From a virus, in IMG/VR virus record IMGVR_UViG_3300023296_000005: 35,853 bases of DNA; one strand, 5' to 3'. A model generated the notes under the pieces. The model made no database searches. It saw nothing but the letters and a program-made list of their open reading frames with translations, and was not told the origin of the DNA. Below, piece after piece: positions 1,687 through 16,660 of this stretch. The translations under genes and the position numbers were made by a program. Within the stretch, counting starts at the first letter, position 1, and every line of letters starts with the position of its first letter.

Positions 1687-2910
1687 ATGAAGAAGTTTTG
1701 GAAAGACGACCACTTAGACAATCTAATTATGGAACCGCTTGCAAATCTTGTAATAATGTACCCACACTTGAAACGAGAAAGCCTACGACGAAAAAAAATA
1801 ATGTACAAAGCAAAGGAACGCAATATGGAACGAGAGCCAACAAAGAGAGTGCTAAAAAAAGAGTGGGAAGTCTCGGCTTTTGACCGTGAAGCAAACGAGT
1901 GGACAACCACCATTAACCACGGCTACGAACACGAAAAGAACCCCGAAGATATAGCAGAAGTCTACAAACCCGTTGAAGCCGCTAAGATAAGCCCTACACG
2001 CCGCAAAGCCATACAGCGACTTGGCAAACGAGTCCTTATATACGGCGATGGTCAAGTTGGCTACAGGCGACGTATAGATGCCGTTACAGACGAACAAGAA
2101 CTAATCCCCACCCATAACATACCTATGCACAACATACTTCAACAGGTAAACGCTGTACATATGCCAGAGACAACCGTCAACCTCGGTGACTTTGCCGACT
2201 TCCCAGAGCTATCACGCTTTGACCCTGACTCTGACCACTTCCACAAGACTCTAGGTATGAGTATGCGCTACATCCACGACTTCTACGCACAGTTTGTTGC
2301 CGACAACCCTAAAGGGCATCACGTTGAGGTTGATTCTAACCACGCCATACGACCACGCAGACAGATACTTAAAAACATACCAGCCCTGTACGACTTTGTA
2401 CGCCCTGGCGAAGAAGACCCAAGTGCTATGCTTACCTACTACTACCTTGCTAATCTTGGCAAGCTAGGCATTGACTTCAAGTCAGGCTACGGTGGAGCAG
2501 AGTACGTGTACGGCACTGAGTACGACGCAGCACCCGTTATCTTCAAACACGGCAACCACTCGTCATCAGCCCCAGGCACAACAGTACGCAAGGAGTCACT
2601 ACAGAACCCCGAAGTACACGTTTTAAGAGGTCACGGACACAACGACGAGGAAATACGAGTTACCCGTCGTGATGGCTCAGTTCTTATATACAAGCAGTTC
2701 GGTAGCAGTTGCCTGAACGATGGACCTACACCTGGCTATGCTAACTCAATTGATGACGAAAACCGACCAGTTAAATATCACAACCAGAACCACCAGAACA
2801 CCTTTGGTATGCTTGACGATCACGAAGATGGAACGTACACGCTACACACCATTGATGTCGTAAACGGTAAAGCAAGGTTTGAGGGCAAAGAATATAATGG
2901 AAACATCTGA
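1687..2910 (+). CDS. Divergent calcineurin-like metallophosphoesterase-fold protein (tentative)
   Basis: The ATG at 1687 is preceded by GGGAGA, so I prefer it to the track start at 1654. Motif series: IYGDGQVG, LGDFADF, SNHA, KHGNHS, RGHGHND. Confidence 0.45.
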   Translation: MKKFWKDDHLDNLIMEPLANLVIMYPHLKRESLRRKKIMYKAKERNMEREPTKRVLKKEWEVSAFDREANEWTTTINHGYEHEKNPEDIAEVYKPVEAAKISPTRRKAIQRLGKRVLIYGDGQVGYRRRIDAVTDEQELIPTHNIPMHNILQQVNAVHMPETTVNLGDFADFPELSRFDPDSDHFHKTLGMSMRYIHDFYAQFVADNPKGHHVEVDSNHAIRPRRQILKNIPALYDFVRPGEEDPSAMLTYYYLANLGKLGIDFKSGYGGAEYVYGTEYDAAPVIFKHGNHSSSAPGTTVRKESLQNPEVHVLRGHGHNDEEIRVTRRDGSVLIYKQFGSSCLNDGPTPGYANSIDDENRPVKYHNQNHQNTFGMLDDHEDGTYTLHTIDVVNGKARFEGKEYNGNI

Positions 2911-3121
2911 ACCAACTGATTACAATATAAACGAACACGACCACGTTAACTGGCCAGATGAAAAGCTGGATAGGGAACTTGCAACATGCGACCTATTGCT
3001 AGACCGCTGGCAGGTATCAGAAGAACGACGCAAGCAGATAGGGCTTAGGGCTTTACTTGCCCGTGAGGAGTCCATACACCGCTATGCAGAGCGTTATCAG
3101 GATAAACACGAAAATGAGTGA
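2897..3121 (+). CDS. Hypothetical protein
   Basis: In-frame ATG at 2897 overlaps the upstream stop. About 74 aa. Confidence 0.55.
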   Translation: METSEPTDYNINEHDHVNWPDEKLDRELATCDLLLDRWQVSEERRKQIGLRALLAREESIHRYAERYQDKHENE

Positions 3122-3124
3122 ACG

Positions 3125-3133
3125 TGGTATAAT
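3125..3133 (+). promoter_or_regulatory. Extended -10 promoter element TGgTATAAT upstream of the methyltransferase
   Basis: TGGTATAAT is followed by the leader CATACAAAAGGGGA and the ATG at 3157. Confidence 0.45.
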
Positions 3134-3156
3134 GCTTACATACAAAAGGGGATTAT

Positions 3157-4995
3157 ATGATAATTAACGGCGACAGTATGGAAGTATTAAAAACACTGGA
3201 CGAAAACTCGGTAGACTCAATTGTTACCGATCCGCCCTATGGTTTATCATTTATGGGTAAAGCCTGGGATCACTCAGTACCTAGTGCTGAATTGTGGCAA
3301 GAAGCCCTTAGGGTGTTAAAGCCTGGTGGCTATCTACTAGCATTCGCAGGAACTCGCACCCAACACCGTATGGCTGTAAACATAGAGGACGCAGGCTTTG
3401 AGATAAGAGACATGATAGCTTGGGTGTATGGTTGTCTAAGCGAAGATACCGAAATACTAACTAAGGACGGGTGGAAACTGTACCATAAAAACATATTATC
3501 TGATAGCGTACTATGCTATAATATAGACAATGACACCTACGAATACAACCAACCAACTAAAAAATACTGGTACAGAAACGAACATACCGCCTACAGCATT
3601 AAGTCAGATACTACAGACCAAATCGTCAGTAGAAACCATCGTGTTATTGTTGAACGAAACGGAAGAAAAGAGTTTGCCTACGCCGAAACACTGGAACGCC
3701 AAGAGGGTGTACCCGTACTGGAAAGCCTGTCTAGTTTGCCAGACACCATTTATGACGTACACCAAAGAGCAAGCACAACGAAACAAGACTTGCTCAACCG
3801 AGTGTGCGAACAAGATGATAGGCAAAGCCAACAGTGGGAAGAAGCAGACAAAACAGAAGTGTCCAGTCTGCGAGCAGATGTTCTATCCAGCGAGCCAGAG
3901 CAAGAACAAGCCAAGAATAAACTGCTCAAGTATATGCAACGGTTACTTACGTGGCAAAGAGTGGGGTACACACGCCTACAAGGGCAGAGCCAACTGGACA
4001 CCAGAGAGCGAACTAGCACTCAAGCAACGAATGACGGGCGAAACGAATCCAAGCTGGAAGGGTGGAGTTACCTATCGCAACCGCAAGGGCAAATACGCCG
4101 AGCAAGCGATAAAATACGTCAGATGTCCAAAAGATTATTTAGCTATGGCGAGGACAGACGGCTATGTTATGGAACACCGACTATTAGTAGCTATGCAGAT
4201 GCAACGACCACTTACGAGAGCCGAGTGCGTACATCACATCAATCACGACGCAACGGACAACAGAATAGAGAACTTAATGCTATTCAAGACCAACGGGGAA
4301 CACAAGAGATACGAGTGGGGTCAAGCCATAGTACCACTTTGGCAACCGTAACACCAATTGAGTATAACGGTCATGTCTGGTGCGTTGAAGTGCCAACGGG
4401 TGCATTTGTAGCAAGGCGTAACGGTAAGGTATTTATTACAGGCAACTCAGGCTTCCCTAAAAGCCATAATATAGGCAAGGCTGTGGATAAGATGCAGGGT
4501 AATGAGAGGGAAGTAAGTGGTACTGGTACTGCTGGTGCTGGATTCAACAAGGTTAAAGGATTTGGTCAGAACACTACAAAAGGGGGAGAAGCTACTACTG
4601 AGTGGGATGAAACCAAAGGCACATCACCCCACGAAGGCTGGGGCACTGCACTTAAGCCTGCACTAGAACCTATAACAGTAGCTCGTAAACCATTCAAAGG
4701 TACAGTAGCAAACAACGTACTAGAGTGGGGTACAGGTGGTATCAATATAGATGGTTCGAGGGTAGGGACAGATATAATGCCAGCCGTAGAGATTAAACAT
4801 AGTTATGGTAATGGGAGCGATAATCATTTCGGCGGTGGAAAACCCAGAGGCAAAGTAACAACAACCCAAGAAGCACAAGGCAGATTCCCTGCTAACCTAA
4901 TACTGTCGTATCCAGAAGACGAGTACACACTAAAGGACAACGTAGCTCCTGATGAACTAAGAAAACTAGCGGAGTATTTAGATGCGAACGCCTAA
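3157..4995 (+). CDS. N6/N4 DNA methyltransferase, N-terminal gene fragment, containing an intein
   Basis: DPPYG catalytic motif. WVYG / SGFPKS is interrupted by a Hint element. Downstream motifs: ALKPALEPITVARKP, GGINIDGSRVG, GRFPANLIL. Confidence 0.85.
   Translation: MIINGDSMEVLKTLDENSVDSIVTDPPYGLSFMGKAWDHSVPSAELWQEALRVLKPGGYLLAFAGTRTQHRMAVNIEDAGFEIRDMIAWVYGCLSEDTEILTKDGWKLYHKNILSDSVLCYNIDNDTYEYNQPTKKYWYRNEHTAYSIKSDTTDQIVSRNHRVIVERNGRKEFAYAETLERQEGVPVLESLSSLPDTIYDVHQRASTTKQDLLNRVCEQDDRQSQQWEEADKTEVSSLRADVLSSEPEQEQAKNKLLKYMQRLLTWQRVGYTRLQGQSQLDTRERTSTQATNDGRNESKLEGWSYLSQPQGQIRRASDKIRQMSKRLFSYGEDRRLCYGTPTISSYADATTTYESRVRTSHQSRRNGQQNRELNAIQDQRGTQEIRVGSSHSTTLATVTPIEYNGHVWCVEVPTGAFVARRNGKVFITGNSGFPKSHNIGKAVDKMQGNEREVSGTGTAGAGFNKVKGFGQNTTKGGEATTEWDETKGTSPHEGWGTALKPALEPITVARKPFKGTVANNVLEWGTGGINIDGSRVGTDIMPAVEIKHSYGNGSDNHFGGGKPRGKVTTTQEAQGRFPANLILSYPEDEYTLKDNVAPDELRKLAEYLDANA
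3433..4446 (+). mobile_element. Intein (338 codons) inserted between WVYG and SGFPKS
   Basis: Starts CLSEDTEILTKDGW. Has a block-B-like VSRNHRVIV. Ends HVWCVEVPTGAFVARRNGKVFITGN with Ser at +1. Excision restores a contiguous conserved motif. Confidence 0.8.
3530..4351 (+). CDS. HNH homing endonuclease in the +1 frame inside the intein (true start uncertain; a GTG at 3707 is possible)
   Basis: Two CxxC...CSxxC zinc ribbons, NPSWKGG, and HHINHDATDNRIENL. The stop falls at the start of the C-terminal Hint block. Confidence 0.75.
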   Translation: MTPTNTTNQLKNTGTETNIPPTALSQILQTKSSVETIVLLLNETEEKSLPTPKHWNAKRVYPYWKACLVCQTPFMTYTKEQAQRNKTCSTECANKMIGKANSGKKQTKQKCPVCEQMFYPASQSKNKPRINCSSICNGYLRGKEWGTHAYKGRANWTPESELALKQRMTGETNPSWKGGVTYRNRKGKYAEQAIKYVRCPKDYLAMARTDGYVMEHRLLVAMQMQRPLTRAECVHHINHDATDNRIENLMLFKTNGEHKRYEWGQAIVPLWQP

Positions 4996-5575
4996 TACTA
5001 ATTGCGACGTGTGTAATGCCGAGTTATACAGGCGACCAGGCGACCAAGCTAAGTTTAATTCAGTTTGCTGTAGGGGTTGTCGGTCAGAGCTATACAAGAA
5101 CAGAGAGCCATCACCCAACCTATTACTTGGCAGAGTTAAGGGCAATAACCATTTAACTGGTATTCCTAAAACAGAATTACACCGCAACAAGATGAAAAAG
5201 ATAATGAGTGAATGGTGTTCTAACAACACAGATAAGGTAGCCGAAAGAGCAAAGAAAACACGCATGGAAAACCACTATCTATGGAATGGTGGCTCAACTA
5301 TACTAAACCAAAAAATACGCAGAATGATAAATATGCGAAACTGGCAAAAAAGTGTCAAAAAAAGAGATGGCTATGTTTGTTTGTGCGGCTCTACCGAGAA
5401 CCTTGAAGCCGACCATATAGTAGAACTTAGAACACTATTGGTTGAACATAATATAAAATCAACCGAAGAAGCTAGGGCCTGTGTGGAGCTATGGGATATA
5501 TCAAACGGACAGACACTATGCCGTAAATGCCACTATGCCAAAGACGGTAGACAATTTAGAAAGGTAACCGCATGA
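4982..5575 (+). CDS. Free-standing HNH endonuclease that splits the methyltransferase gene
   Basis: CDVC...CCRGC ribbon. CLCGSTENLEADHIVE...NGQTLCRKCHYAK HNH motif. The start overlaps the upstream stop by 14 nt, and the stop overlaps the downstream ATG (ATGA). Confidence 0.85.
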   Translation: MRTPNTNCDVCNAELYRRPGDQAKFNSVCCRGCRSELYKNREPSPNLLLGRVKGNNHLTGIPKTELHRNKMKKIMSEWCSNNTDKVAERAKKTRMENHYLWNGGSTILNQKIRRMINMRNWQKSVKKRDGYVCLCGSTENLEADHIVELRTLLVEHNIKSTEEARACVELWDISNGQTLCRKCHYAKDGRQFRKVTA

Positions 5576-6504
5576 ACATCGACAAGACAACATTTGATAA
5601 ACTGCCAGATGAAATAAAGAGGCTATTTGTTAAAGCGCCCAATCCTGGTAGTGATGAGGTAGTAGGGTTGTTTCCTGATACTAAGACAAACTCAACGGGC
5701 AAGAATAGCCCATCAGATTATAATACTAAAAGTGTTTTTGGTGCTGGAACGGGTAGTGGTGCTAAGCCTTACGGTGGCGACTCTGGCTCTGCTGCTCGCT
5801 TTTTTTATTGTGCGAAAAGTTCAAAAGCAGAACGCAATAAAGGGCTTAACAGGCTTAACTGTGCTATAATAGATATATGCAAAGACGAAAATACGGAACA
5901 GGTCACATCACTCCTAAGGGATATATTAGAATCAATACCCAATTTGAACATAGACGAGTCTGGATTGAGGCTAACGGTGCAATACCCAAAGGATACTATG
6001 TCCACCATATTAACCACGATAAATCAGATAACCGACTTGAAAACCTACAGCTTGTTGATGCAATCACCCACAAGAGAATCCATGAAGGATGTATTGTCAA
6101 AGATGATGAATGGCTTAAGCCCTGTGGAGTCTGTAAAGAGTTTAAGCGAATTGACGATGACAACTGGTACTTCTCAAGAGAAGGGTGGATTAGCTACGGA
6201 AGATGTAAGAAATGCCATGTATCAAAGGTTGTTGAAGCTAAAAGACGAAAGCGAATGGAAGCCAAGAACCTCGACACATCCAACGGTTAAGCCAGTCCGC
6301 CTGATGCAATACCTAGTCAAGCTAGTAACACCAGTGGGCGGTATTGTCCTCGATCCATTTAACGGCTCAGGCACTACAGGCATAGCTTGTAAGCTCGAGG
6401 GCTTTGAATACGTGGGTATTGAGCTAGACCCAGAATACTGCACCCTATCAGAGGCTCGTATAGAGGCATGGGCAATAGAAGCAGAACAGGTAAGTATGCT
6501 ATGA
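5572..6504 (+). CDS. N6/N4 DNA methyltransferase, C-terminal gene fragment, with an inserted segment of about 140 aa
   Basis: GSDEVVGLFP, GDSGSAARFFYCAKSSKAERNKG, HPTVKPVRLMQYLVKLVTP, and VLDPFNGSGTTGIA (SAM-binding motif). Confidence 0.85.
   Translation: MNIDKTTFDKLPDEIKRLFVKAPNPGSDEVVGLFPDTKTNSTGKNSPSDYNTKSVFGAGTGSGAKPYGGDSGSAARFFYCAKSSKAERNKGLNRLNCAIIDICKDENTEQVTSLLRDILESIPNLNIDESGLRLTVQYPKDTMSTILTTINQITDLKTYSLLMQSPTRESMKDVLSKMMNGLSPVESVKSLSELTMTTGTSQEKGGLATEDVRNAMYQRLLKLKDESEWKPRTSTHPTVKPVRLMQYLVKLVTPVGGIVLDPFNGSGTTGIACKLEGFEYVGIELDPEYCTLSEARIEAWAIEAEQVSML
5877..6290 (+). CDS. HNH homing endonuclease (HNH_3-like) in an alternate frame inside the methyltransferase C-fragment
   Basis: GYIRI...EHRRVWIEANGAIPKGYYVHHINHDKSDNRLENL plus a CGVC...CKKCH ribbon. 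The stop lies within the host HPTVKP codons. Confidence 0.8.
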   Translation: MQRRKYGTGHITPKGYIRINTQFEHRRVWIEANGAIPKGYYVHHINHDKSDNRLENLQLVDAITHKRIHEGCIVKDDEWLKPCGVCKEFKRIDDDNWYFSREGWISYGRCKKCHVSKVVEAKRRKRMEAKNLDTSNG

Positions 6505-6842
6505 GTGAAGAAGACCCAACTATACGCATGAGCATAGGCTCTCACGAGTTTGACCTTAAACGTACTAACTCTGAAATATTCCACTTTATGGGTGCGCTGG
6601 CAGTGTACAATCACCTGTTTATTCTTGAAGATGAAACAGAAGATGTCAAAACAGGCAGGTTCATACCGCAAGAGCTAATAGGCAAAGAACCGTTCGACCA
6701 GGTTATGGGGCTAATGATAGAAAACGGCTACCCTGTACGCCTTAATCAACTTGAGGTTTCAGAAACAGACGCAGCAAACATTGAGCGAATACTTAAAGGC
6801 AACGACGCAGACGAAATACCCAACTGGTTGCCAGAGGTTTAG
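6501..6842 (+). CDS. Hypothetical protein
   Basis: The ATG at 6501 overlaps the methyltransferase stop (ATGA). 113 aa. Confidence 0.7.
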   Translation: MSEEDPTIRMSIGSHEFDLKRTNSEIFHFMGALAVYNHLFILEDETEDVKTGRFIPQELIGKEPFDQVMGLMIENGYPVRLNQLEVSETDAANIERILKGNDADEIPNWLPEV

Positions 6843-6844
6843 CG

Positions 6845-6853
6845 TGCTACAAT
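6845..6853 (+). promoter_or_regulatory. Extended -10-like element TGcTACAAT
   Basis: Sequence match only. Lies directly after the stop at 6842. Confidence 0.3.
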
Positions 6854-6952
6854 AAACACAACTGGATTAGTCACCAGGCGTTACTGTACGAGCTTTGACC
6901 GTGAAGCCCTGACTACAATAGCGTAAGATACAATTGACCACTGGCTTACGGT

Positions 6953-7925: not shown

Positions 7926-8057
7926 ATGAACAAAGACCAAGCAACCGTTATAGAATTACTAATCAGAAAGACTGCACTTAAAGATGTAGAAATCTGGCTT
8001 AACGAACAATACGTTATGATTGCAAAAGCAATAGAAGCAATTGAGGAAAAGTCATGA
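7926..8057 (+). CDS. Small hypothetical protein (43 aa), below the ORF-track cutoff
   Basis: AAAGGGGA lies 5 nt upstream of the ATG. The stop overlaps the next ATG (ATGA). Peptide: MNKDQATVIELLIRKTALKDVEIWLNEQYVMIAKAIEAIEEKS. Confidence 0.6.
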   Translation: MNKDQATVIELLIRKTALKDVEIWLNEQYVMIAKAIEAIEEKS

Positions 8058-8593
8058 CAGAAATACCAAAAGACGCAATCTTACGAGTAGAAACGGGATT
8101 GACCATAGAGCAGGTGCAGAAGTTTTTTACTAAGACACCAAGAGATAAAATTAAGCAACGTCCAGCAAAAGGCGGCGGTACTTGGGATTATGTGTCAGGG
8201 TCATACGTTACGCAAGTGTTAAACTCTTTGTTTGGTTTTTATTGGAGCTTTGAGGTAATAACCCCAATGGCAGATGCACTTGCAACTGCTCGCACAGGTA
8301 CAGTAGTTGTCCAGGGACGCTTAAAGGTTAAGATTGGCGACGACTGGATTACCAAAGAACAATACGGGCGTAAAGACGTTATGATGAAAAAAAACGGCGA
8401 CACACCACTAGACTTTGGCAATGACTTAAAAGCCGCTGCAACTGACGCTAAAAAGAAATGTGCTAGCGAGCTTGGACTATTTGCAGATGTTTACTCACAA
8501 GAAGATTTCTTTGAAGCACAAATTATTGACACCGCACCAACACCAGAAGAAAAAAAGCAAGCCATTAAGGACAAGTTAAATGAAAGTAATTAA
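8054..8593 (+). CDS. Rad52-family single-strand annealing protein (Sak-like)
   Basis: KGGGTWDYVSGSYVTQVLNSLFGFYWSFEV...DLKAAATDAKKKCASELGLFADVY. Confidence 0.7.
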   Translation: MTEIPKDAILRVETGLTIEQVQKFFTKTPRDKIKQRPAKGGGTWDYVSGSYVTQVLNSLFGFYWSFEVITPMADALATARTGTVVVQGRLKVKIGDDWITKEQYGRKDVMMKKNGDTPLDFGNDLKAAATDAKKKCASELGLFADVYSQEDFFEAQIIDTAPTPEEKKQAIKDKLNESN

Positions 8594-9260
8594 AGTATCA
8601 CAGCAAAACGACAGAGAAGCCTGGCTACAACTTCGTAGGGGTGTTATTACTGGCACAAAAGCAAAAACAACCGCACCGCCTAAACGTGGCAACGTAACGC
8701 CTCAAGGTATATTTGAGCTTCTTGCCGAGCATGTAGCTATTCAAAAAGATGGCGAGCCAGAACGTGATCGTGGTTTGCGATTAGAAAACGAAGCCCTGCA
8801 AGCAACTGCAAGCAAGTACAATTTAGACTTAGACTACGACCCTGGCATGTGGTTTTCAGATGACGGCAAACTAGGCGTAAGCCCAGATGCTTCAGAAAAA
8901 AGCGACAACCCAACCTTTGCAGCAGAAGCTAAATGTTTAGATAGTAAAAATCACTTGCAAGGTATACTCAACGATCAAGCCAACAAGAAGCTACCACAGT
9001 ATAACCCACTAGACAGCTTAAAGATTGCAACATCAGACTTTACTGCACAAGCCATACAATACTTTGTGCTTAATCAAAGCCTAAACATATTGTACTTTAC
9101 CCTATACGATGATCGCATTGCCTTAGACAACGTAGTACACTATGTTATAGAGATTAACCGCAAAGACGTTGCAGAATACATTGACGGTCAAGAAACATAT
9201 CAACGAGACGCACTGGCAAAAATTGATGGAATGATTAAAGTATTGAAAGGCATTAAATAA
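8580..9260 (+). CDS. YqaJ-like recombination exonuclease (PD-(D/E)XK)
   Basis: EAWLQLRRGVITGTKA, GVSPDAS, AEAKC. Adjacent to the annealase. Confidence 0.7.
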   Translation: MKVIKVSQQNDREAWLQLRRGVITGTKAKTTAPPKRGNVTPQGIFELLAEHVAIQKDGEPERDRGLRLENEALQATASKYNLDLDYDPGMWFSDDGKLGVSPDASEKSDNPTFAAEAKCLDSKNHLQGILNDQANKKLPQYNPLDSLKIATSDFTAQAIQYFVLNQSLNILYFTLYDDRIALDNVVHYVIEINRKDVAEYIDGQETYQRDALAKIDGMIKVLKGIK

Positions 9261-14333: not shown

Positions 14334-14431
14334 ACGAAAAACTAGCCATGTTCCTATTCTTTGCAATTACTATTGTAGGTACGGCATTGCTGCTGTTGCC
14401 ATTTGTATACTTAATCGGAGGGATGTTGTAA
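14330..14431 (+). CDS. 33-aa single-TM peptide
   Basis: AAGGAGA RBS. Peptide: MNEKLAMFLFFAITIVGTALLLLPFVYLIGGML. TAATG overlap with the next gene. Confidence 0.5.
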   Translation: MNEKLAMFLFFAITIVGTALLLLPFVYLIGGML

Positions 14432-14817
14432 TGCGTGATATTAAGTTTAGAGCGTGGGACACAGTAGATAATAATTACTGGCAAGGTATTTACTTGCAGT
14501 CCGTACCTGCTATGTATTTGCCGCCAAAGTTCAAGCAAAACGAACACGCACTTGTTTGGCAACAATACACAGGAATTAAAGATAAAAATGGCGTAGAGAT
14601 ATACGAGGGAGATATAATTTCTTTAATTCGCTGTTTAGACAAACACTTTATTTGTATGTGCAATAAACTGCCAGACAAAGATTTTACTGACGTAGTTATA
14701 TTTGAAAACGGTGCGTTTACCTGTAATGAATTGGGTAATATACCTGATTATTACGAAGTCATAGGCAACATATATGAGCACGGTTATTTACTGGAAAACG
14801 AAAGCAAAAAGGTGTAA
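14431..14817 (+). CDS. YopX-family protein
   Basis: MRDIKFRAWD...QQYTGIKDKNGVEIYEGDII...EVIGNIYEH. Confidence 0.8.
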   Translation: MRDIKFRAWDTVDNNYWQGIYLQSVPAMYLPPKFKQNEHALVWQQYTGIKDKNGVEIYEGDIISLIRCLDKHFICMCNKLPDKDFTDVVIFENGAFTCNELGNIPDYYEVIGNIYEHGYLLENESKKV

Positions 14818-14826
14818 AATGATAGT

Positions 14827-15318
14827 ATGCACTCAAAAGAAACTCGAAAAAAAATTGGCGACGCACTCAGAAAAGAAAAAAAGTTCAACTGTGATTACTG
14901 TAAAAAAGAATCTGTTACAAAACCATCCCATTATGCCAGAAAGAAAAAGCATTACTGCTCAAGGCTGTGCTACTCAAATGACAGGGAATATAACTATAAG
15001 TCCCACGAACAAAACTCTTGGAAGGGTGGGATTAGCAGCTATGAGTCTCATAAAAAATGGGTGTCAAAGAATAAAGAACGTATGTCGCACCTCAAGGCAA
15101 GACGCTACGCAAGAGAAAAGGGGGCTGAGGGTTTTCACACTCTTGAAGAATGGCAAAGACTTAAAAGCATTTATAATGATAGGTGCGCTTTTTGCAAAGA
15201 AAGTAAGTTACTCACAAAAGACCATGTTATGCCACTATCAAAAGGCGGCTCAGACTATATTACTAACATACAGCCACTATGCAGAAATTGTAATAGTAAA
15301 AAGTCGGCTAAGTTTTGA
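14827..15318 (+). CDS. HNH endonuclease, the fourth in this genome
   Basis: CDYC...CSRLC ribbon, NSWKGG, CAFC...DHVMPLSKGGSD...NIQPLCRNCNSKK. Confidence 0.85.
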   Translation: MHSKETRKKIGDALRKEKKFNCDYCKKESVTKPSHYARKKKHYCSRLCYSNDREYNYKSHEQNSWKGGISSYESHKKWVSKNKERMSHLKARRYAREKGAEGFHTLEEWQRLKSIYNDRCAFCKESKLLTKDHVMPLSKGGSDYITNIQPLCRNCNSKKSAKF

Positions 15319-15357
15319 CATATACGAAACCCCTGAACTATTAAAGGAGGCAGCGTA

Positions 15358-15624
15358 ATGGACATAAACAAACTAATGGAACGCTATAACATATCCCACG
15401 GTATTGAAAACGACCAGGTGGACATAGACATGTTTAAGGCAGAACTTGCGGAGACAATTGCAACCGAGAAACTAGACACCGCTTACGAGATCACGCTAAA
15501 GTACGCCTGTATGAGCAAATGGCAACTACTACGCACAGACTTTAACCACGACTTAGATCGCATGGAAGATGAACTTGGAGAGCGCATGGAAGATGAACTT
15601 TGTATATGGGAGTGCAAGCTATGA
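15358..15624 (+). CDS. Hypothetical protein containing a 24-nt tandem duplication (RMEDELGE/RMEDELCI)
   Basis: RBS AAGGAGG. Repeat copies at 15559-15576 and 15583-15600. Confidence 0.7.
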   Translation: MDINKLMERYNISHGIENDQVDIDMFKAELAETIATEKLDTAYEITLKYACMSKWQLLRTDFNHDLDRMEDELGERMEDELCIWECKL

Positions 15625-16654: not shown

Positions 16655-16660
16655 TATAAT
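16652..16660 (+). promoter_or_regulatory. Extended -10 element TGaTATAAT ahead of the glycosyltransferase operon
   Basis: Canonical TGnTATAAT overlapping the upstream stop codon. Confidence 0.45.

What the first reader, a model, noticed from the sequence alone, without database searches (positions are those of the whole stretch)
3157..6504. Three homing-endonuclease genes in one 3.3-kb host gene, two hidden as stop-free overprints
One gene carries an intein, a gene-splitting HEG and a nested HEG. Both out-of-frame HNH genes (+1 and +2 phase, about 270 and 138 codons) leave the host frame uninterrupted. At a rough one stop per 20-25 codons in non-coding frames, each would be rare by chance and both together very rare. 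That points to selection to keep the methylase translatable through embedded selfish genes. Such an arrangement would let an HEG invade without an intein or intron of its own. This interpretation is hypothesis only.
Basis: inference. Interest (0 to 1): 0.8.

Follow-up and report, generated by a model that had tools for sequence, protein, structure and literature searches.

The report
Phage methylase carrying three homing endonucleases
One phage DNA-methylase gene holds three selfish HNH endonuclease genes, two of them written in a second reading frame while the methylase frame stays stop-free; the layout is real and under selection, but the same kind of hidden endonuclease was published in 2025, so this is a rich new example and not a new principle.

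Summary
The host is a beta-class N6/N4 DNA methylase, present as 3157-4995 plus 5572-6504. It carries a 338-codon intein (3433-4446) with a 273-codon HNH gene in the +1 frame (3530-4351). A free-standing HNH gene (4982-5575) splits the methylase. A 137-codon HNH gene in the +2 frame (5877-6290) lies inside a read-through insertion.

The host frame has 0 stops over the two hidden genes, against about 20 and 6 expected. The third frame has 19 and 23.

The layout is conserved. In 82 of 86 loci with an HNH1 relative, and in all HNH3-family loci found, the methylase frame is stop-free at the same site. Variability by codon position and dN/dS show selection on the HNH frame inside each overlap and on the host frame outside it.

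A close relative (L088) lacks the intein and the split. The intein is 90-96% identical to one sitting in exteins only 40-69% identical. Both point to a mobile element.

Precedents are the ShiLan hidden HNH in the same methylase family (2025) and inteins with out-of-frame endonucleases (1998, 2025, 2026).

New here are the out-of-frame HNH methylase intein, more insertion sites, and a TGCTATAAT box 6-7 nt before both hidden ATGs. That box suggests leaderless expression, which is inferred and untested.

The parts
3125..3133 (+). TGGTATAAT extended -10 box, 23 nt upstream of the methylase ATG (putative promoter of the host gene)
   Evidence: TGNTATAAT occurs 10 times in the window against 2.0 expected. 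A GGGG Shine-Dalgarno lies before the ATG at 3157. Function is inferred.
3157..3432 (+). Methylase N-extein (aa 1-92), with the DPPY catalytic motif at 3229-3240; ends in AWVYG
   Evidence: Pfam N6_N4_Mtase. The predicted structure matches CcrM, M1.HpyAVI and RsrI. L088 reads AWVYG|SGFPKS with no intein, which gives the empty site.
3433..4446 (+). Intein, 338 codons in the host frame: Cys1 (CLSEDTEIL), block B TDQIVSRNHRVIV (3613-3651), C-terminal VWCVEVPTGAFVARRNGKVFITGN followed by Ser+1
   Evidence: Sequence match to the AceL NrdHF intein 6zgq (9e-5). Fold match to inteins (6zgq 1e-6, 9hth, 7cfv). The C-terminal block is 89% identical to the ShiLan gp65 intein at the same site. Exactly this segment is absent from L088. 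dN/dS in the host frame is 0.12 and 0.05 in the two splicing regions.
3835..4302 (+). Host-frame read of the HNH1 core (intein residues about 227-382 of the precursor): stop-free, polar, predicted disordered linker between the two halves of the HINT fold
   Evidence: AF2 pLDDT is 22-36 here, against 71-86 for the flanking splicing domains, with a 48-sequence alignment. Variability peaks at host codon position 1, so there is no amino-acid constraint in this frame.
3514..3522 (+). TGCTATAAT extended -10 box, 7 nt before the HNH1 ATG (putative internal promoter giving a leaderless mRNA); the same bases encode the intein's Cys-Tyr-Asn
   Evidence: It is conserved with the ATG in L004, L005 and L073. 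Function is inferred.
3530..4351 (+). HNH1: 273-codon HNH (HNH_3-type) endonuclease gene in the +1 frame, with two CxxC...C zinc ribbons and a C-terminal HNH core (HH at residue 235)
   Evidence: Pfam and PHROG matches. AF2 mean pLDDT 87.6. dN/dS 0.27-0.28 in this frame. 646 database relatives at E<=1e-10. Most relatives have a conserved ATG with a GGAG Shine-Dalgarno.
3568..3660 (+). Segment constrained in both frames: intein block B in the host frame and the HNH1 N-terminal helices in the +1 frame
   Evidence: Entropy is low at all three codon positions. The host-frame strands are well predicted, and HNH1 residues 21-60 have pLDDT 96-97.
4447..4903 (+). Methylase middle extein (SGFPKS ... 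ALKPALEPITVARKP ... GRFPANLI)
   Evidence: It aligns with L088 at 83-88% nt identity apart from variable loops.
4904..5641 (+). HNH2 cassette, absent from L088. It contains a conserved 30-aa C-terminal tail of the N-part (SYPEDEYTLKDNVAPDELRKLAEYLDANA*), the HNH2 gene, and a 23-aa leader of the C-part (MNIDKTTFDKLPDEIKRLFVKAP)
   Evidence: Alignment gap against L088. The same tail is found in 13 of 120 top N-part homologues. The same split with an HNH2 homologue occurs in L075, and the split without any endonuclease gene in L018.
4982..5575 (+). HNH2: free-standing 197-codon HNH gene that splits the methylase. It has a GGAG Shine-Dalgarno, its start overlaps the last 14 nt of the N-part, and its stop overlaps the C-part start (ATGA)
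   Evidence: There are 20 host-frame stops across it.
5572..6504 (+). Methylase C-part (310 aa): SAARFFYCAK (5788-5817), HPTVKP (6277-6294), SAM-binding motif DPFNGSGTT (6352-6378)
   Evidence: Pfam N6_N4_Mtase 1e-21; motif positions.
5848..6276 (+). Read-through insertion of about 143 host-frame codons between ERNKGL and HPTVKP that carries HNH3. It has no intein motifs and no intron match
   Evidence: Insertion-free alleles are seen in L001, L008, L011 and L075. No Rfam match. The homologous insertion lies at the same site in L013 and L088-L098.
5862..5870 (+). TGCTATAAT extended -10 box, 6 nt before the HNH3 ATG. It is read as Ala-Ile-Ile in the host frame, a different phase from the box at 3514
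   Evidence: L013 and L094 have TATAAT plus GGAGG/GGGGG before their start codons. Function is inferred.
5877..6290 (+). HNH3: 137-codon HNH_3 endonuclease gene in the +2 frame. Its TAA stop lies inside the host's conserved HPTVKP codons (GTT AAG)
   Evidence: Variability peaks at host position 2, which is HNH position 3, over 5881-6240. It is 96% identical in protein to L088, with 100% nt identity in the core.

Best explanation
A non-essential phage DNA methylase (beta-class, CcrM-like) acts as a landing pad for homing endonuclease genes. In this 35.8-kb siphovirus-like genome it is occupied three times.

(1) Intein with HNH1. An intein sits at the family's standard intein site (AWVYG|SGFPKS). 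Its usual in-frame endonuclease domain is replaced by a stand-alone HNH gene written in the +1 frame. In the methylase frame the same DNA encodes a stop-free, disordered linker of about 155 residues. That linker joins the two halves of the HINT splicing fold and leaves with the intein when it splices.

(2) HNH2. A free-standing HNH gene splits the methylase into two genes that appear to be translationally coupled. Conserved tail and leader peptides, brought in with the cassette, presumably let the two halves reassemble.

(3) HNH3. A small HNH gene in the +2 frame sits in a variable surface loop just before the HPTVKP motif. It has no splicing element. The methylase is translated straight through it and keeps an extra loop of about 143 residues.

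Selection therefore acts in two layers. The endonuclease frames are under ordinary purifying selection, which serves homing. The methylase frame over them is selected only to contain no stop codon. That costs the endonuclease little, because most potential stops (xxT|AA, xxT|AG, xxT|GA) can be removed by a synonymous third-position change.

The hidden genes are most likely expressed on their own. In most relatives there is an embedded Shine-Dalgarno plus ATG. In this phage a TGCTATAAT extended -10 box lies 6-7 nt before each ATG, which would give leaderless mRNAs.

What is shown: the anatomy, the non-random open frames, their conservation, the frame-specific selection, the presence/absence polymorphism and the signature of horizontal transfer. 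What is inferred: protein splicing, reassembly of the two halves, tolerance of the extra loop, cleavage specificity and the mode of expression. The confidence given applies to the architecture and the two-layer selection; the leaderless-expression step alone I would put at about 0.4.
For: Anatomy and family matches.

Non-randomness: one search gives 0 stops observed against 20.2 and 6.4 expected. One search gives 19 and 23 stops in the third frame.

Conservation:
- In 82 of 86 loci with an HNH1 relative the host frame has 0 stops. The free-standing homologue L002 has 31.
- The host is the same methylase and the same site in every locus where the junctions could be read.
- All HNH3-family loci have a stop-free host frame at one site.
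- ShiLan-type elements in L017, L021, L078 and L087 behave the same way.

Frame-specific selection:
- Maximal variability switches from host position 3 to host position 1 across 3660-4290 and back again.
- It switches to host position 2 across 5881-6240.
- dN/dS in the HNH1 core is 0.28 in the HNH frame, 0.56-0.61 in the host frame and 1.55 in the third frame. In the splicing blocks it is 0.05-0.12 in the host frame.

Folds:
- The HNH frame gives pLDDT 87.6.
- The host frame of the same DNA gives pLDDT 22-36, flanked by a confident HINT fold.
- That model matches inteins and CcrM-type methylases. There is also a sequence match to intein 6zgq and 89% identity of the C-terminal block to the ShiLan intein.

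Mobility:
- The intein is 90-96% identical in nucleotides to L004/L005, while their exteins are 40-69% identical.
- L088 has exteins 83-91% identical to the window, lacks the intein and the HNH2 cassette precisely, and carries HNH3 at 100% core identity.
- The phage encodes Rad52- and YqaJ-like recombination proteins that could repair the breaks.

Expression:
- A conserved ATG with GGAG 8-10 nt upstream is present in most relatives.
- The exact 10-mer TGCTATAATA occurs only twice in 35.8 kb, both times 6-7 nt before a hidden ATG.
- TGNTATAAT occurs 10 times against 2.0 expected.
- TATAAT-N6-7-ATG occurs 6 times against 0.77 expected.

Precedent for the same logic: PMC11855218 and preprint 10.1101/2025.01.02.630785.
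Against: - Nothing functional has been tested: splicing, methylation, reassembly of the two halves and endonuclease cleavage are all unverified.
- The intein lacks the penultimate His (it ends GN|S). So does the ShiLan intein.
- HNH1 gave no significant whole-chain match to solved structures and no sequence match to the PDB. Its HNH assignment rests on Pfam and PHROG profiles and on the motif.
- The -10 box at 3514 coincides with conserved intein residues (L-C-Y-N). It could therefore be a by-product of the host frame. It has no good -35 element, and the simple promoter scan did not list it.
- Some relatives are decaying while the frame over the HNH gene is still open. In L068/L086 the methylase is truncated after the intein, in L072 the N-terminus is degenerate, and L009 has one stop. 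Openness alone does not prove that a given copy is functional.
- How a stop-free overprint arises in the first place is unexplained.
Confidence: 0.85

Rival explanations
1. The open host frames are chance or a by-product of base composition or codon usage of these HNH genes.
For: The window is A-rich on the + strand. After shuffling synonymous codons within the ORF, HNH3's open frame is only moderately unlikely (P = 0.027).
Against: For HNH1, none of 5000 resamples was stop-free, and about 20 stops are expected. The third frames carry 19 and 23 stops. The free-standing homologue L002 has 31 stops in the equivalent frame. The open frame is conserved in 82 of 86 HNH1 loci and in all HNH3-family loci, down to 48-50% protein identity.
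Confidence: 0.01
2. The out-of-frame layout is a sequencing or assembly frameshift artefact of an ordinary in-frame HNH intein, or the methylase is a decaying pseudogene.
For: In-frame HNH inteins exist (preprint 10.1101/2025.01.02.630785). A few relatives are visibly degenerate: L068/L086, L072 and L009. PGAP annotates only a truncated methylase in the Azotobacter vinelandii prophage.
Against: The same frame relation is found in more than 80 independent assemblies. The identical protein is on record in 41 blocks of the collection. The host frame is open and selected in the splicing blocks and exteins, with dN/dS of 0.05-0.14. All catalytic motifs are intact: DPPY, SGFPKS, HPTVKP and DPFNGSGTT. 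The conserved ATG and ribosome-binding site fit an independent gene.
Confidence: 0.03
3. HNH1 and/or HNH3 are not made from their own start codons. Instead, programmed ribosomal frameshifting on the methylase mRNA yields N-extein/intein-HNH or methylase-HNH fusion proteins.
For: In this phage neither hidden ATG has a Shine-Dalgarno. About 100 nt are constrained in both frames. Phages use frameshifting elsewhere, which is general knowledge.
Against: An ATG is conserved at the head of the HNH frame in nearly all relatives. It usually has GGAG 8-10 nt upstream, or a TATAAT box 6-7 nt upstream. The first 13 residues of HNH1 are predicted disordered, as expected for a free N-terminus. HNH1 would need a +1 shift and HNH3 a +2/-1 shift. 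I did not look for a slippery site or a stimulator structure.
Confidence: 0.07
4. The HNH3 insertion is removed after all, either as an unrecognised self-splicing intron or as an atypical protein-splicing element. In that case the open frame would not reflect translation through it.
For: HNH_3-type endonucleases such as I-HmuI are typically intron-encoded (general knowledge; also discussed in PMC11855218). The insertion begins at a Cys (CAIIDI) and is followed shortly by Thr/His.
Against: There is no Rfam match at E<=1 anywhere in 2900-6900, which includes all group I and group II models. An intron would not need an open host frame, yet the frame is open in all 8 distinct family members. The host-frame peptide has no HINT blocks and no terminal Asn. 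Its amino-acid sequence is unconstrained, since variability peaks at host position 2. The authors of the ShiLan study reached the same negative result for their element.
Confidence: 0.08

Closest known systems
ShiLan domain: hidden out-of-frame HNH endonuclease in actinobacteriophage DNA methylases (Arsenault, Gosselin & Gogarten 2025, PMC11855218; earlier PMC9957025)
   Same: It is in the same methylase family (PF01555). ShiLan gp65 aligns with the window's methylase and has its intein at the same site. An HNH gene lies in the +2 ('third') frame, and the host frame is stop-free. There are no intron or intein signatures, and the endonuclease stop codon lies at the very end of the insertion. 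Distribution is patchy. HNH3 is this kind of element. True ShiLan-type copies also occur in the relatives L017, L021 and L078.
   Different: HNH3 sits at a different site: the loop before HPTVKP, not inside ALKP..EP|..ARKP. It is a shorter and only distantly related HNH (137 vs 195 aa). It starts at ATG with a TATAAT box rather than at GTG. It comes from a non-actinophage genome of about 42% GC. Its stop codon uses the host's own HPTVKP codons.
Non-canonical inteins with the homing endonuclease in another frame or strand: the cyanobacterial DnaX intein (Gorbalenya 1998, as cited in the preprints; 10.64898/2026.09.14.751524) and actinophage inteins with an out-of-frame EndoVII-like or antisense LAGLIDADG/VSR endonuclease (10.1101/2025.01.02.630785)
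   Same: The intein splicing domain is in the host frame, and the endonuclease is a separate overlapping ORF. The host-frame read of the endonuclease region is unstructured. Purifying selection falls on the endonuclease frame. The proposed origin is secondary invasion of a mini-intein.
   Different: Here the endonuclease is an HNH_3-type enzyme with two zinc ribbons, in the +1 frame, in an N6/N4 methylase intein. The preprint lists HNH only as in-frame, and finds its non-canonical cases in DNA polymerase, minor capsid, terminase and thymidylate synthase. The family is large and is found at this one site wherever the junctions could be read. About 100 nt are constrained in both frames.
Canonical LAGLIDADG intein of actinophage methylases (ShiLan gp65 and relatives; PMC9957025)
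   Same: It has the same insertion site (W[VL]YG|C...VFITGN|SGFPKS). The C-terminal splicing block is 89% identical and the N-terminal block is recognisably homologous.
   Different: In ShiLan the central region is an in-frame LAGLIDADG domain. Here it is a disordered host-frame linker over an out-of-frame HNH gene. This looks like an endonuclease swap on a shared splicing scaffold.
Genes split by free-standing homing endonuclease genes (e.g. the Aeromonas phage Aeh1 nrdA split by mobE; 'fractured genes' with split inteins, Dassa 2009). Both are cited from my own knowledge and from the introduction of preprint 10.1101/2025.01.02.630785
   Same: HNH2 lies between two halves of one enzyme gene. 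The start and stop codons overlap its neighbours. An unsplit allele exists in a close relative (L088).
   Different: No split-intein halves flank HNH2: the tail and leader total about 53 aa and have no nucleophile or Asn. Instead, a conserved 30-aa tail and a 23-aa leader accompany the split. They persist even where the endonuclease gene is gone (L018).

Membership tests
Intein (HINT protein-splicing domain) | N-terminal nucleophile (Cys/Ser), and a C-terminal Asn followed by Cys/Ser/Thr at +1 | tested here: met
   Cys at 3433-3435, Asn at 4444-4446 and Ser at 4447-4449. These residues are invariant in the 48-sequence alignment: C93, N430 and S431.
Intein (HINT protein-splicing domain) | HINT fold, or sequence similarity to characterised inteins | tested here: met
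   phmmer match to the AceL NrdHF intein 6zgq at 9.3e-5. The AF2 model matches 6zgq (1.1e-6), 9hth, 7cfv, 1mi8 and others at probability 1.00.
Intein (HINT protein-splicing domain) | Block B (T/S)xxH and the penultimate His of block G | tested here: inconclusive
   Block B reads S-R-N-H, and S158, N160 and H161 are invariant. The penultimate residue is Gly rather than His (..TGN|S), as in the ShiLan intein. I did not determine whether the intein is class 1 or class 3. The best structural match is a class 3 intein, and a block-F Cys is conserved (VWC).
Intein (HINT protein-splicing domain) | Precise presence/absence at a conserved extein site | tested here: met
   L088 reads AWVYG|SGFPKS. The missing segment is 3436-4449 as aligned, which equals 3433-4446 allowing for alignment slack.
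Intein (HINT protein-splicing domain) | Protein splicing activity | not testable with these tools
   This needs expression and mass spectrometry. Indirect support comes from dN/dS of 0.05-0.12 in the splicing blocks.
Non-canonical intein with out-of-frame homing endonuclease | An endonuclease ORF lies wholly within the intein in another frame, while the intein frame stays open | tested here: met
   HNH1 (3530-4351) lies inside the intein (3433-4446) in the +1 frame, with 0 host-frame stops. The same holds in 82 of 86 loci.
Non-canonical intein with out-of-frame homing endonuclease | Purifying selection on the endonuclease frame, with a relaxed host frame over the overlap | tested here: met
ShiLan-type hidden HNH insertion | An insertion in a methylase with no stop in the host frame, carrying an out-of-frame HNH ORF | tested here: met
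   HNH3 (5877-6290) is in the +2 frame with 0 host-frame stops. The same holds in 8 distinct loci.
ShiLan-type hidden HNH insertion | No recognisable intron or intein splicing element | tested here: met
   Rfam gives no match at E<=1. The host-frame peptide has no HINT motifs and its amino-acid sequence is unconstrained. Absence of splicing was not tested experimentally.
ShiLan-type hidden HNH insertion | Homology to the ShiLan element itself, and the same insertion site | tested here: not met
   HNH3 matches the ShiLan-site elements only weakly, over the HNH core: 31-37% identity at E of about 1e-4 to 1e-5 in L017, L021 and L078. It also inserts about 140 codons further downstream in the methylase. 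It is analogous to ShiLan, not the same element.
HNH (His-Me finger) endonuclease | Profile match and an H-N-H core motif | tested here: met
   HNH3 matches Pfam HNH_3 at 2.6e-15. HNH1 matches HNH_3 at 1.9e-6 (above the cut-off) and PHROG HNH families at 5e-13. HNH2 matches PHROG HNH families at 5e-9, but its Pfam HNH score of 20.1 bits is below the 21.4 cut-off. The motifs are VHHINHD..N..ENL..H (HNH1, HNH3) and DHI..N..CH (HNH2).
HNH (His-Me finger) endonuclease | Site-specific cleavage of the insertion-free allele (homing) | not testable with these tools
   The evidence is indirect only: the transfer signature and the empty sites in L088.
Group I / group II intron | Match to a covariance model of a catalytic RNA core | tested here: not met
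   No Rfam hit in 2900-6900 on either strand at E<=1.
Split intein ('fractured gene') at the HNH2 split | Int-N after the N-extein and Int-C before the C-extein, with nucleophile and Asn, together about 130 aa or more | tested here: not met
   The tail is 29-30 aa and the leader 23 aa. There is no Cys1 and no terminal Asn followed by Ser/Thr/Cys.

The most novel reading that the evidence does not exclude
Overprinted homing endonucleases may be a general and under-annotated lifestyle with its own expression device. On this reading, the endonuclease cassettes carry an extended -10 promoter embedded in host coding sequence and are made from leaderless or very short-leader transcripts. In other lineages they use an embedded Shine-Dalgarno instead.

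This methylase family offers at least five distinct landing sites: the intein site, the ALKP|ARKP site, the ANLI split, SAARFF|YCAKAS and the pre-HPTVKP loop.

The out-of-frame HNH methylase intein would be a large, actively homing class that is missing from intein catalogues. It has at least 170 metagenomic loci and 646 protein clusters. Gene callers report only one of the two overlapping genes.

A fourth endonuclease in this same phage, the HNH_5 gene next to YopX, is also covered by a conserved stop-free frame. That hints that the stop-free property travels with the cassette rather than being acquired at each site.
Probability: 0.35. Interest if true: 0.6.

Novelty: new member of a known kind. 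Interest (0 to 1): 0.45.

Why it matters
- It shows that homing endonuclease genes can colonise a protein-coding gene in three different ways at once without destroying it. The 'hidden HNH' phenomenon reported for mycobacteriophages in 2025 is widespread in environmental phages and prophages, and it extends to inteins.
- Standard annotation misses these genes, or truncates the host gene instead. PGAP does this in the Azotobacter vinelandii prophage. Intein and endonuclease censuses are therefore biased.
- The locus comes with natural controls. L088 provides empty sites, L002 is a free-standing homologue, and the A. vinelandii lysogen is culturable. Together they make three questions directly testable: how overlapping genes of this kind are expressed, how they move, and how they arise.
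- A long, disordered, freely evolving linker tolerated inside a functional intein is also of practical interest for intein engineering.

Tried and rejected
- Near-identity DNA search of the phage collection found no match.
- A profile of the HNH1 family against PDB sequences found no match.
- Foldseek of the whole HNH1 model against the PDB gave nothing significant. There were only weak zinc-ribbon (YacG) and I-PpoI echoes, probably because the model is several small domains on flexible linkers, with pTM 0.47.
- Rfam at a permissive threshold found nothing, so the intron reading was set aside.
- The generic sigma-70 scan did not flag the TGCTATAAT boxes, because they lack a -35 element. Its hit count was no higher than in shuffled sequence. 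The promoter idea therefore rests on the enrichment of the extended -10 box and of its spacing to ATG, not on that scan.
- A search for HNH2 relatives in viral contigs found none. Only L075 carries a homologue, at 45% identity.
- I considered a split intein at the HNH2 junction and rejected it: the flanking peptides are too short and have no catalytic residues.
- I considered chance, sequencing error and a pseudogene, and rejected them (see the rival explanations).

Full report
**1. What is in the sequence**

- 3157-4995 is a 612-aa ORF. It starts as an N6/N4 DNA methylase with a DPPY motif (Pfam PF01555).
- 5572-6504 is a 310-aa ORF in the same frame. It carries the C-terminal half of the same Pfam domain (1e-21).
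- Three further ORFs lie between and inside them: HNH1 at 3530-4351 (273 aa, +1 relative to the host), HNH2 at 4982-5575 (197 aa) and HNH3 at 5877-6290 (137 aa, +2).
- All three match HNH endonuclease families.
- The host protein contains an intein from Cys93 (CLSEDTEIL) to Asn430, followed by Ser (..VFITGN|SGFPKS), at 3433-4446.

The window is a complete-length contig of 35,853 bases (Ga0222634_1000201). It is a siphovirus-like phage with terminase, portal, HK97-type capsid, tape measure and a Rad52/YqaJ recombination module. The identical C-part protein is on record in 41 blocks of the collection, mostly on contigs of 20-50 kb; the three shown are 35.3-35.9 kb. The layout is therefore not an assembly error.

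**2. Is it more than chance?**

- Over HNH1 the host frame has 0 stops and the remaining frame 19.
- Over HNH3 the counts are 0 and 23.
- Over HNH2 the host frame has 20 stops, so that is a genuine split.

I kept each HNH protein fixed and redrew its codons from this phage's codon usage. This gives 20.2 expected host-frame stops for HNH1 (0 of 5000 draws stop-free) and 6.4 for HNH3 (P = 8e-4). Shuffling each gene's own synonymous codons still gives 11.4 and 2.0. In 21 other genes of the window, alternative frames hit a stop every 11.5-15.7 codons.

**3. Relatives**

*HNH1 family.* A profile of HNH1 relatives retrieved 2 viral, 80 metagenomic (of 170 found) and 3 genomic loci.
- In 82 of 86 loci the frame that corresponds to the host frame has no stop over about 260 codons. 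The third frame has 5-28 stops.
- The exceptions are informative. L002/L081/L083 are one free-standing copy of the gene with 31 stops in that frame. L009 has a single stop.
- In every locus where the junctions could be read, the host is the same methylase at the same site: W[VL]YG|C...GN|SGFPKS.
- The protein database holds 646 clusters related to HNH1 at E<=1e-10. One is annotated 'HNH endonuclease' in an Azotobacter vinelandii chromosome.
- There it lies inside an 860-codon methylase ORF in a prophage. PGAP calls only a truncated 402-aa methylase.

*HNH3 family.* It was found in 12 viral loci plus L013, which makes 8 distinct sequences including the window.
- It always lies between ERNxG(L) and xH(P/S)TVKP of the methylase.
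- It is always +2 relative to the host.
- The host frame always has 0 stops, and the third frame 10-23.

*HNH2.* A 45% identical homologue lies between the same two methylase halves in L075. L018 has the same split with no endonuclease gene left. Of the 120 best N-part homologues, 13 end at the same point with a conserved 30-residue tail.

**4. Which frame is under selection?**

Across 63 distinct inteins, the codon position with the highest variability changes along the element.
- From 3433 to about 3650 it is host position 3.
- From about 3660 to 4290 it is host position 1, which is the third position of HNH1.
- After about 4290 it is host position 3 again.
- Between 3568 and 3660 all three positions are conserved. 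Here intein block B and the N-terminal helices of HNH1 are both constrained.

For HNH3 the peak moves to host position 2, which is HNH3's third position, over 5881-6240. It sits at host position 3 in the flanks.

Pairwise dN/dS against L004/L005 agrees:

| Region | Host frame | HNH frame | Third frame |
|---|---|---|---|
| HNH1 core (3661-4290) | 0.56-0.61 | 0.27-0.28 | 1.55-1.60 |
| Intein N-splicing region | 0.12 | 0.98 | 3.87 |
| Intein C-splicing region | 0.05 | 1.16 | not defined |

Structure prediction gives the same picture.
- The HNH frame folds with mean pLDDT 87.6.
- The host-frame read of the same DNA (residues 227-382) has pLDDT 22-36, even with 48 aligned homologues.
- The flanking splicing halves score 71-86.
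- The host-frame model matches solved inteins (6zgq, 1e-6) and CcrM-type methylases.

**5. Mobility**

- The intein with its HNH gene is 90-96% identical in nucleotides between the window and L004/L005. The surrounding exteins are only 40-69% identical, and the boundaries are sharp.
- L088 is the closest relative by extein (83-91% identity) and by gene order. It has no intein (AWVYG|SGFPKS) and no HNH2 cassette (..ANLIHDGSDEVV..).
- L088 does carry HNH3, at 96% protein identity and 100% nucleotide identity in the core.
- This combination of presence/absence polymorphism and intein-extein discordance is the classical signature of homing.

**6. Expression (inferred)**

- In most relatives the HNH1 frame opens with a conserved ATG (M-K/T-T-N/A-I-P-P-T), preceded by GGAG at 8-10 nt.
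- In the window's clade the ATG lies 16 codons further upstream and has no Shine-Dalgarno.
- The 10-mer TGCTATAATA occurs exactly twice in the 35.8-kb genome. One copy ends 7 nt before the HNH1 ATG and the other 6 nt before the HNH3 ATG.
- TGNTATAAT is five-fold enriched: 10 occurrences against 2.0 expected. One copy lies upstream of the methylase itself.
- TATAAT-N6-7-ATG occurs 6 times against 0.77 expected.
- The two boxes are read in different host-frame phases: Cys-Tyr-Asn at 3514 and Ala-Ile-Ile at 5862. HNH3 relatives carry TATAAT plus GGAGG before their starts.
- The most economical reading is an internal extended -10 promoter that gives leaderless or very short-leader mRNAs. This echoes the leaderless-translation speculation made for ShiLan.
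- It is untested, and the box at 3514 may partly reflect conserved intein residues.
- HNH2 and both methylase parts have ordinary Shine-Dalgarno sequences and overlapping start/stop codons.

**7. Comparison with the literature**

- Arsenault, Gosselin and Gogarten (2025, PMC11855218) described the ShiLan domain. It is an insertion in the same methylase family that adds no stop to the host frame and hides a 195-aa HNH gene in the third frame. It has no intron or intein signature.
- I re-examined ShiLan gp65 (L087). Its hidden HNH is at the ALKP..|..ARKP site, and its intein is at the same site as the window's, but with an in-frame LAGLIDADG domain.
- Gosselin et al. (preprint 10.1101/2025.01.02.630785) list inteins with in-frame HNH, antisense LAGLIDADG or VSR, and out-of-frame EndoVII-like endonucleases. 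None of these is in methylases.
- Phillips et al. (preprint 10.64898/2026.09.14.751524) describe the DnaX intein with an out-of-frame LAGLIDADG gene. They trace the idea to Gorbalenya 1998 and call it a rarity.

Both kinds of overprint therefore have precedent.

Not reported in the papers I could search:
- an HNH gene in the +1 frame of a methylase intein, as a very large single-site family;
- the HNH3 site, and a further site at SAARFF|YCAKAS (L017, L018, L102);
- triple occupancy of one gene;
- the promoter and Shine-Dalgarno features.

**8. Verdict**

I classify the finding as a new member of a known kind, and a particularly complete natural example that comes with built-in controls.

Open points:
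- how a stop-free overprint originates;
- whether the split, loop-bearing methylase is active;
- how the hidden genes are expressed.

Noticed in passing
window 14431-15358 (and L103 2015-2978): A fourth endonuclease gene (HNH_5/EndoVII-like, 14827-15318) follows a complete YopX gene (14431-14817). A stop-free 194-codon ORF in the +1 frame (14774-15358) covers it entirely and ends in a second copy of the YopX C-terminal motif (..IYETPELLKEAA). L103 has the same layout at 57% HNH identity. It is unclear why this frame stays open.
   Followed up: partly
window 3125, 3514, 5862, 11217, 16652, 21218, 34386 (+); 1100, 7726, 18831 (-): The extended -10 box TGNTATAAT is five-fold enriched (10 against 2.0 expected). 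TATAAT-N6-7-ATG is eight-fold enriched (6 against 0.77), including sites at 16655, 21221 (a 125-codon ORF) and 24897. This suggests the phage makes several leaderless transcripts.
   Followed up: partly
L102 (Azotobacter vinelandii CP092752.2, prophage), 3466-6048: A cultured bacterium carries the same methylase, with the intein and out-of-frame HNH (4001-4930) and a second hidden HNH (5343-5759) at the SAARFF|YCAKAS site. The public annotation calls the HNH gene and only a truncated 402-aa methylase.
   Followed up: partly
L018 5756-6187; L017; L102 5343-5759: There is a further hidden-HNH landing site inside the conserved SAARFFYCAKAS motif. The motif is partly duplicated on both sides of the insertion, and the host frame is open.
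   Followed up: partly
window 4904-4995 and 5572-5641; P0140-P0247; L018 5400-5560: The split methylase halves carry a conserved 30-aa tail (..YPEDEY.L.D.VT..Q...LA.W..ENA*) and a conserved leader (M.ID..T[FY]K.[LM]P..[IL]..LF...PNP). Both persist in L018, where no endonuclease gene separates the halves. They may be docking peptides for reassembly.
   Followed up: partly
L068/L086 (Candidatus Liptonbacteria MAG) 3547-5049; L072 3910-4857; L009: These are decaying copies. The methylase is truncated after the intein (L068/L086) or lacks its N-terminus (L072), or has one host-frame stop (L009). The frame over the HNH gene is still largely open in all of them.
   Followed up: no
window 8054-9260: Rad52-like and YqaJ-like recombination genes lie 1.5 kb downstream of the methylase. 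They could repair endonuclease-made breaks during homing.
   Followed up: no
window 6288-6290: The TAA stop of HNH3 is formed by the host's conserved Val-Lys codons (GTT AAG) of the HPTVKP motif. The endonuclease ORF therefore ends in native host sequence.
   Followed up: yes
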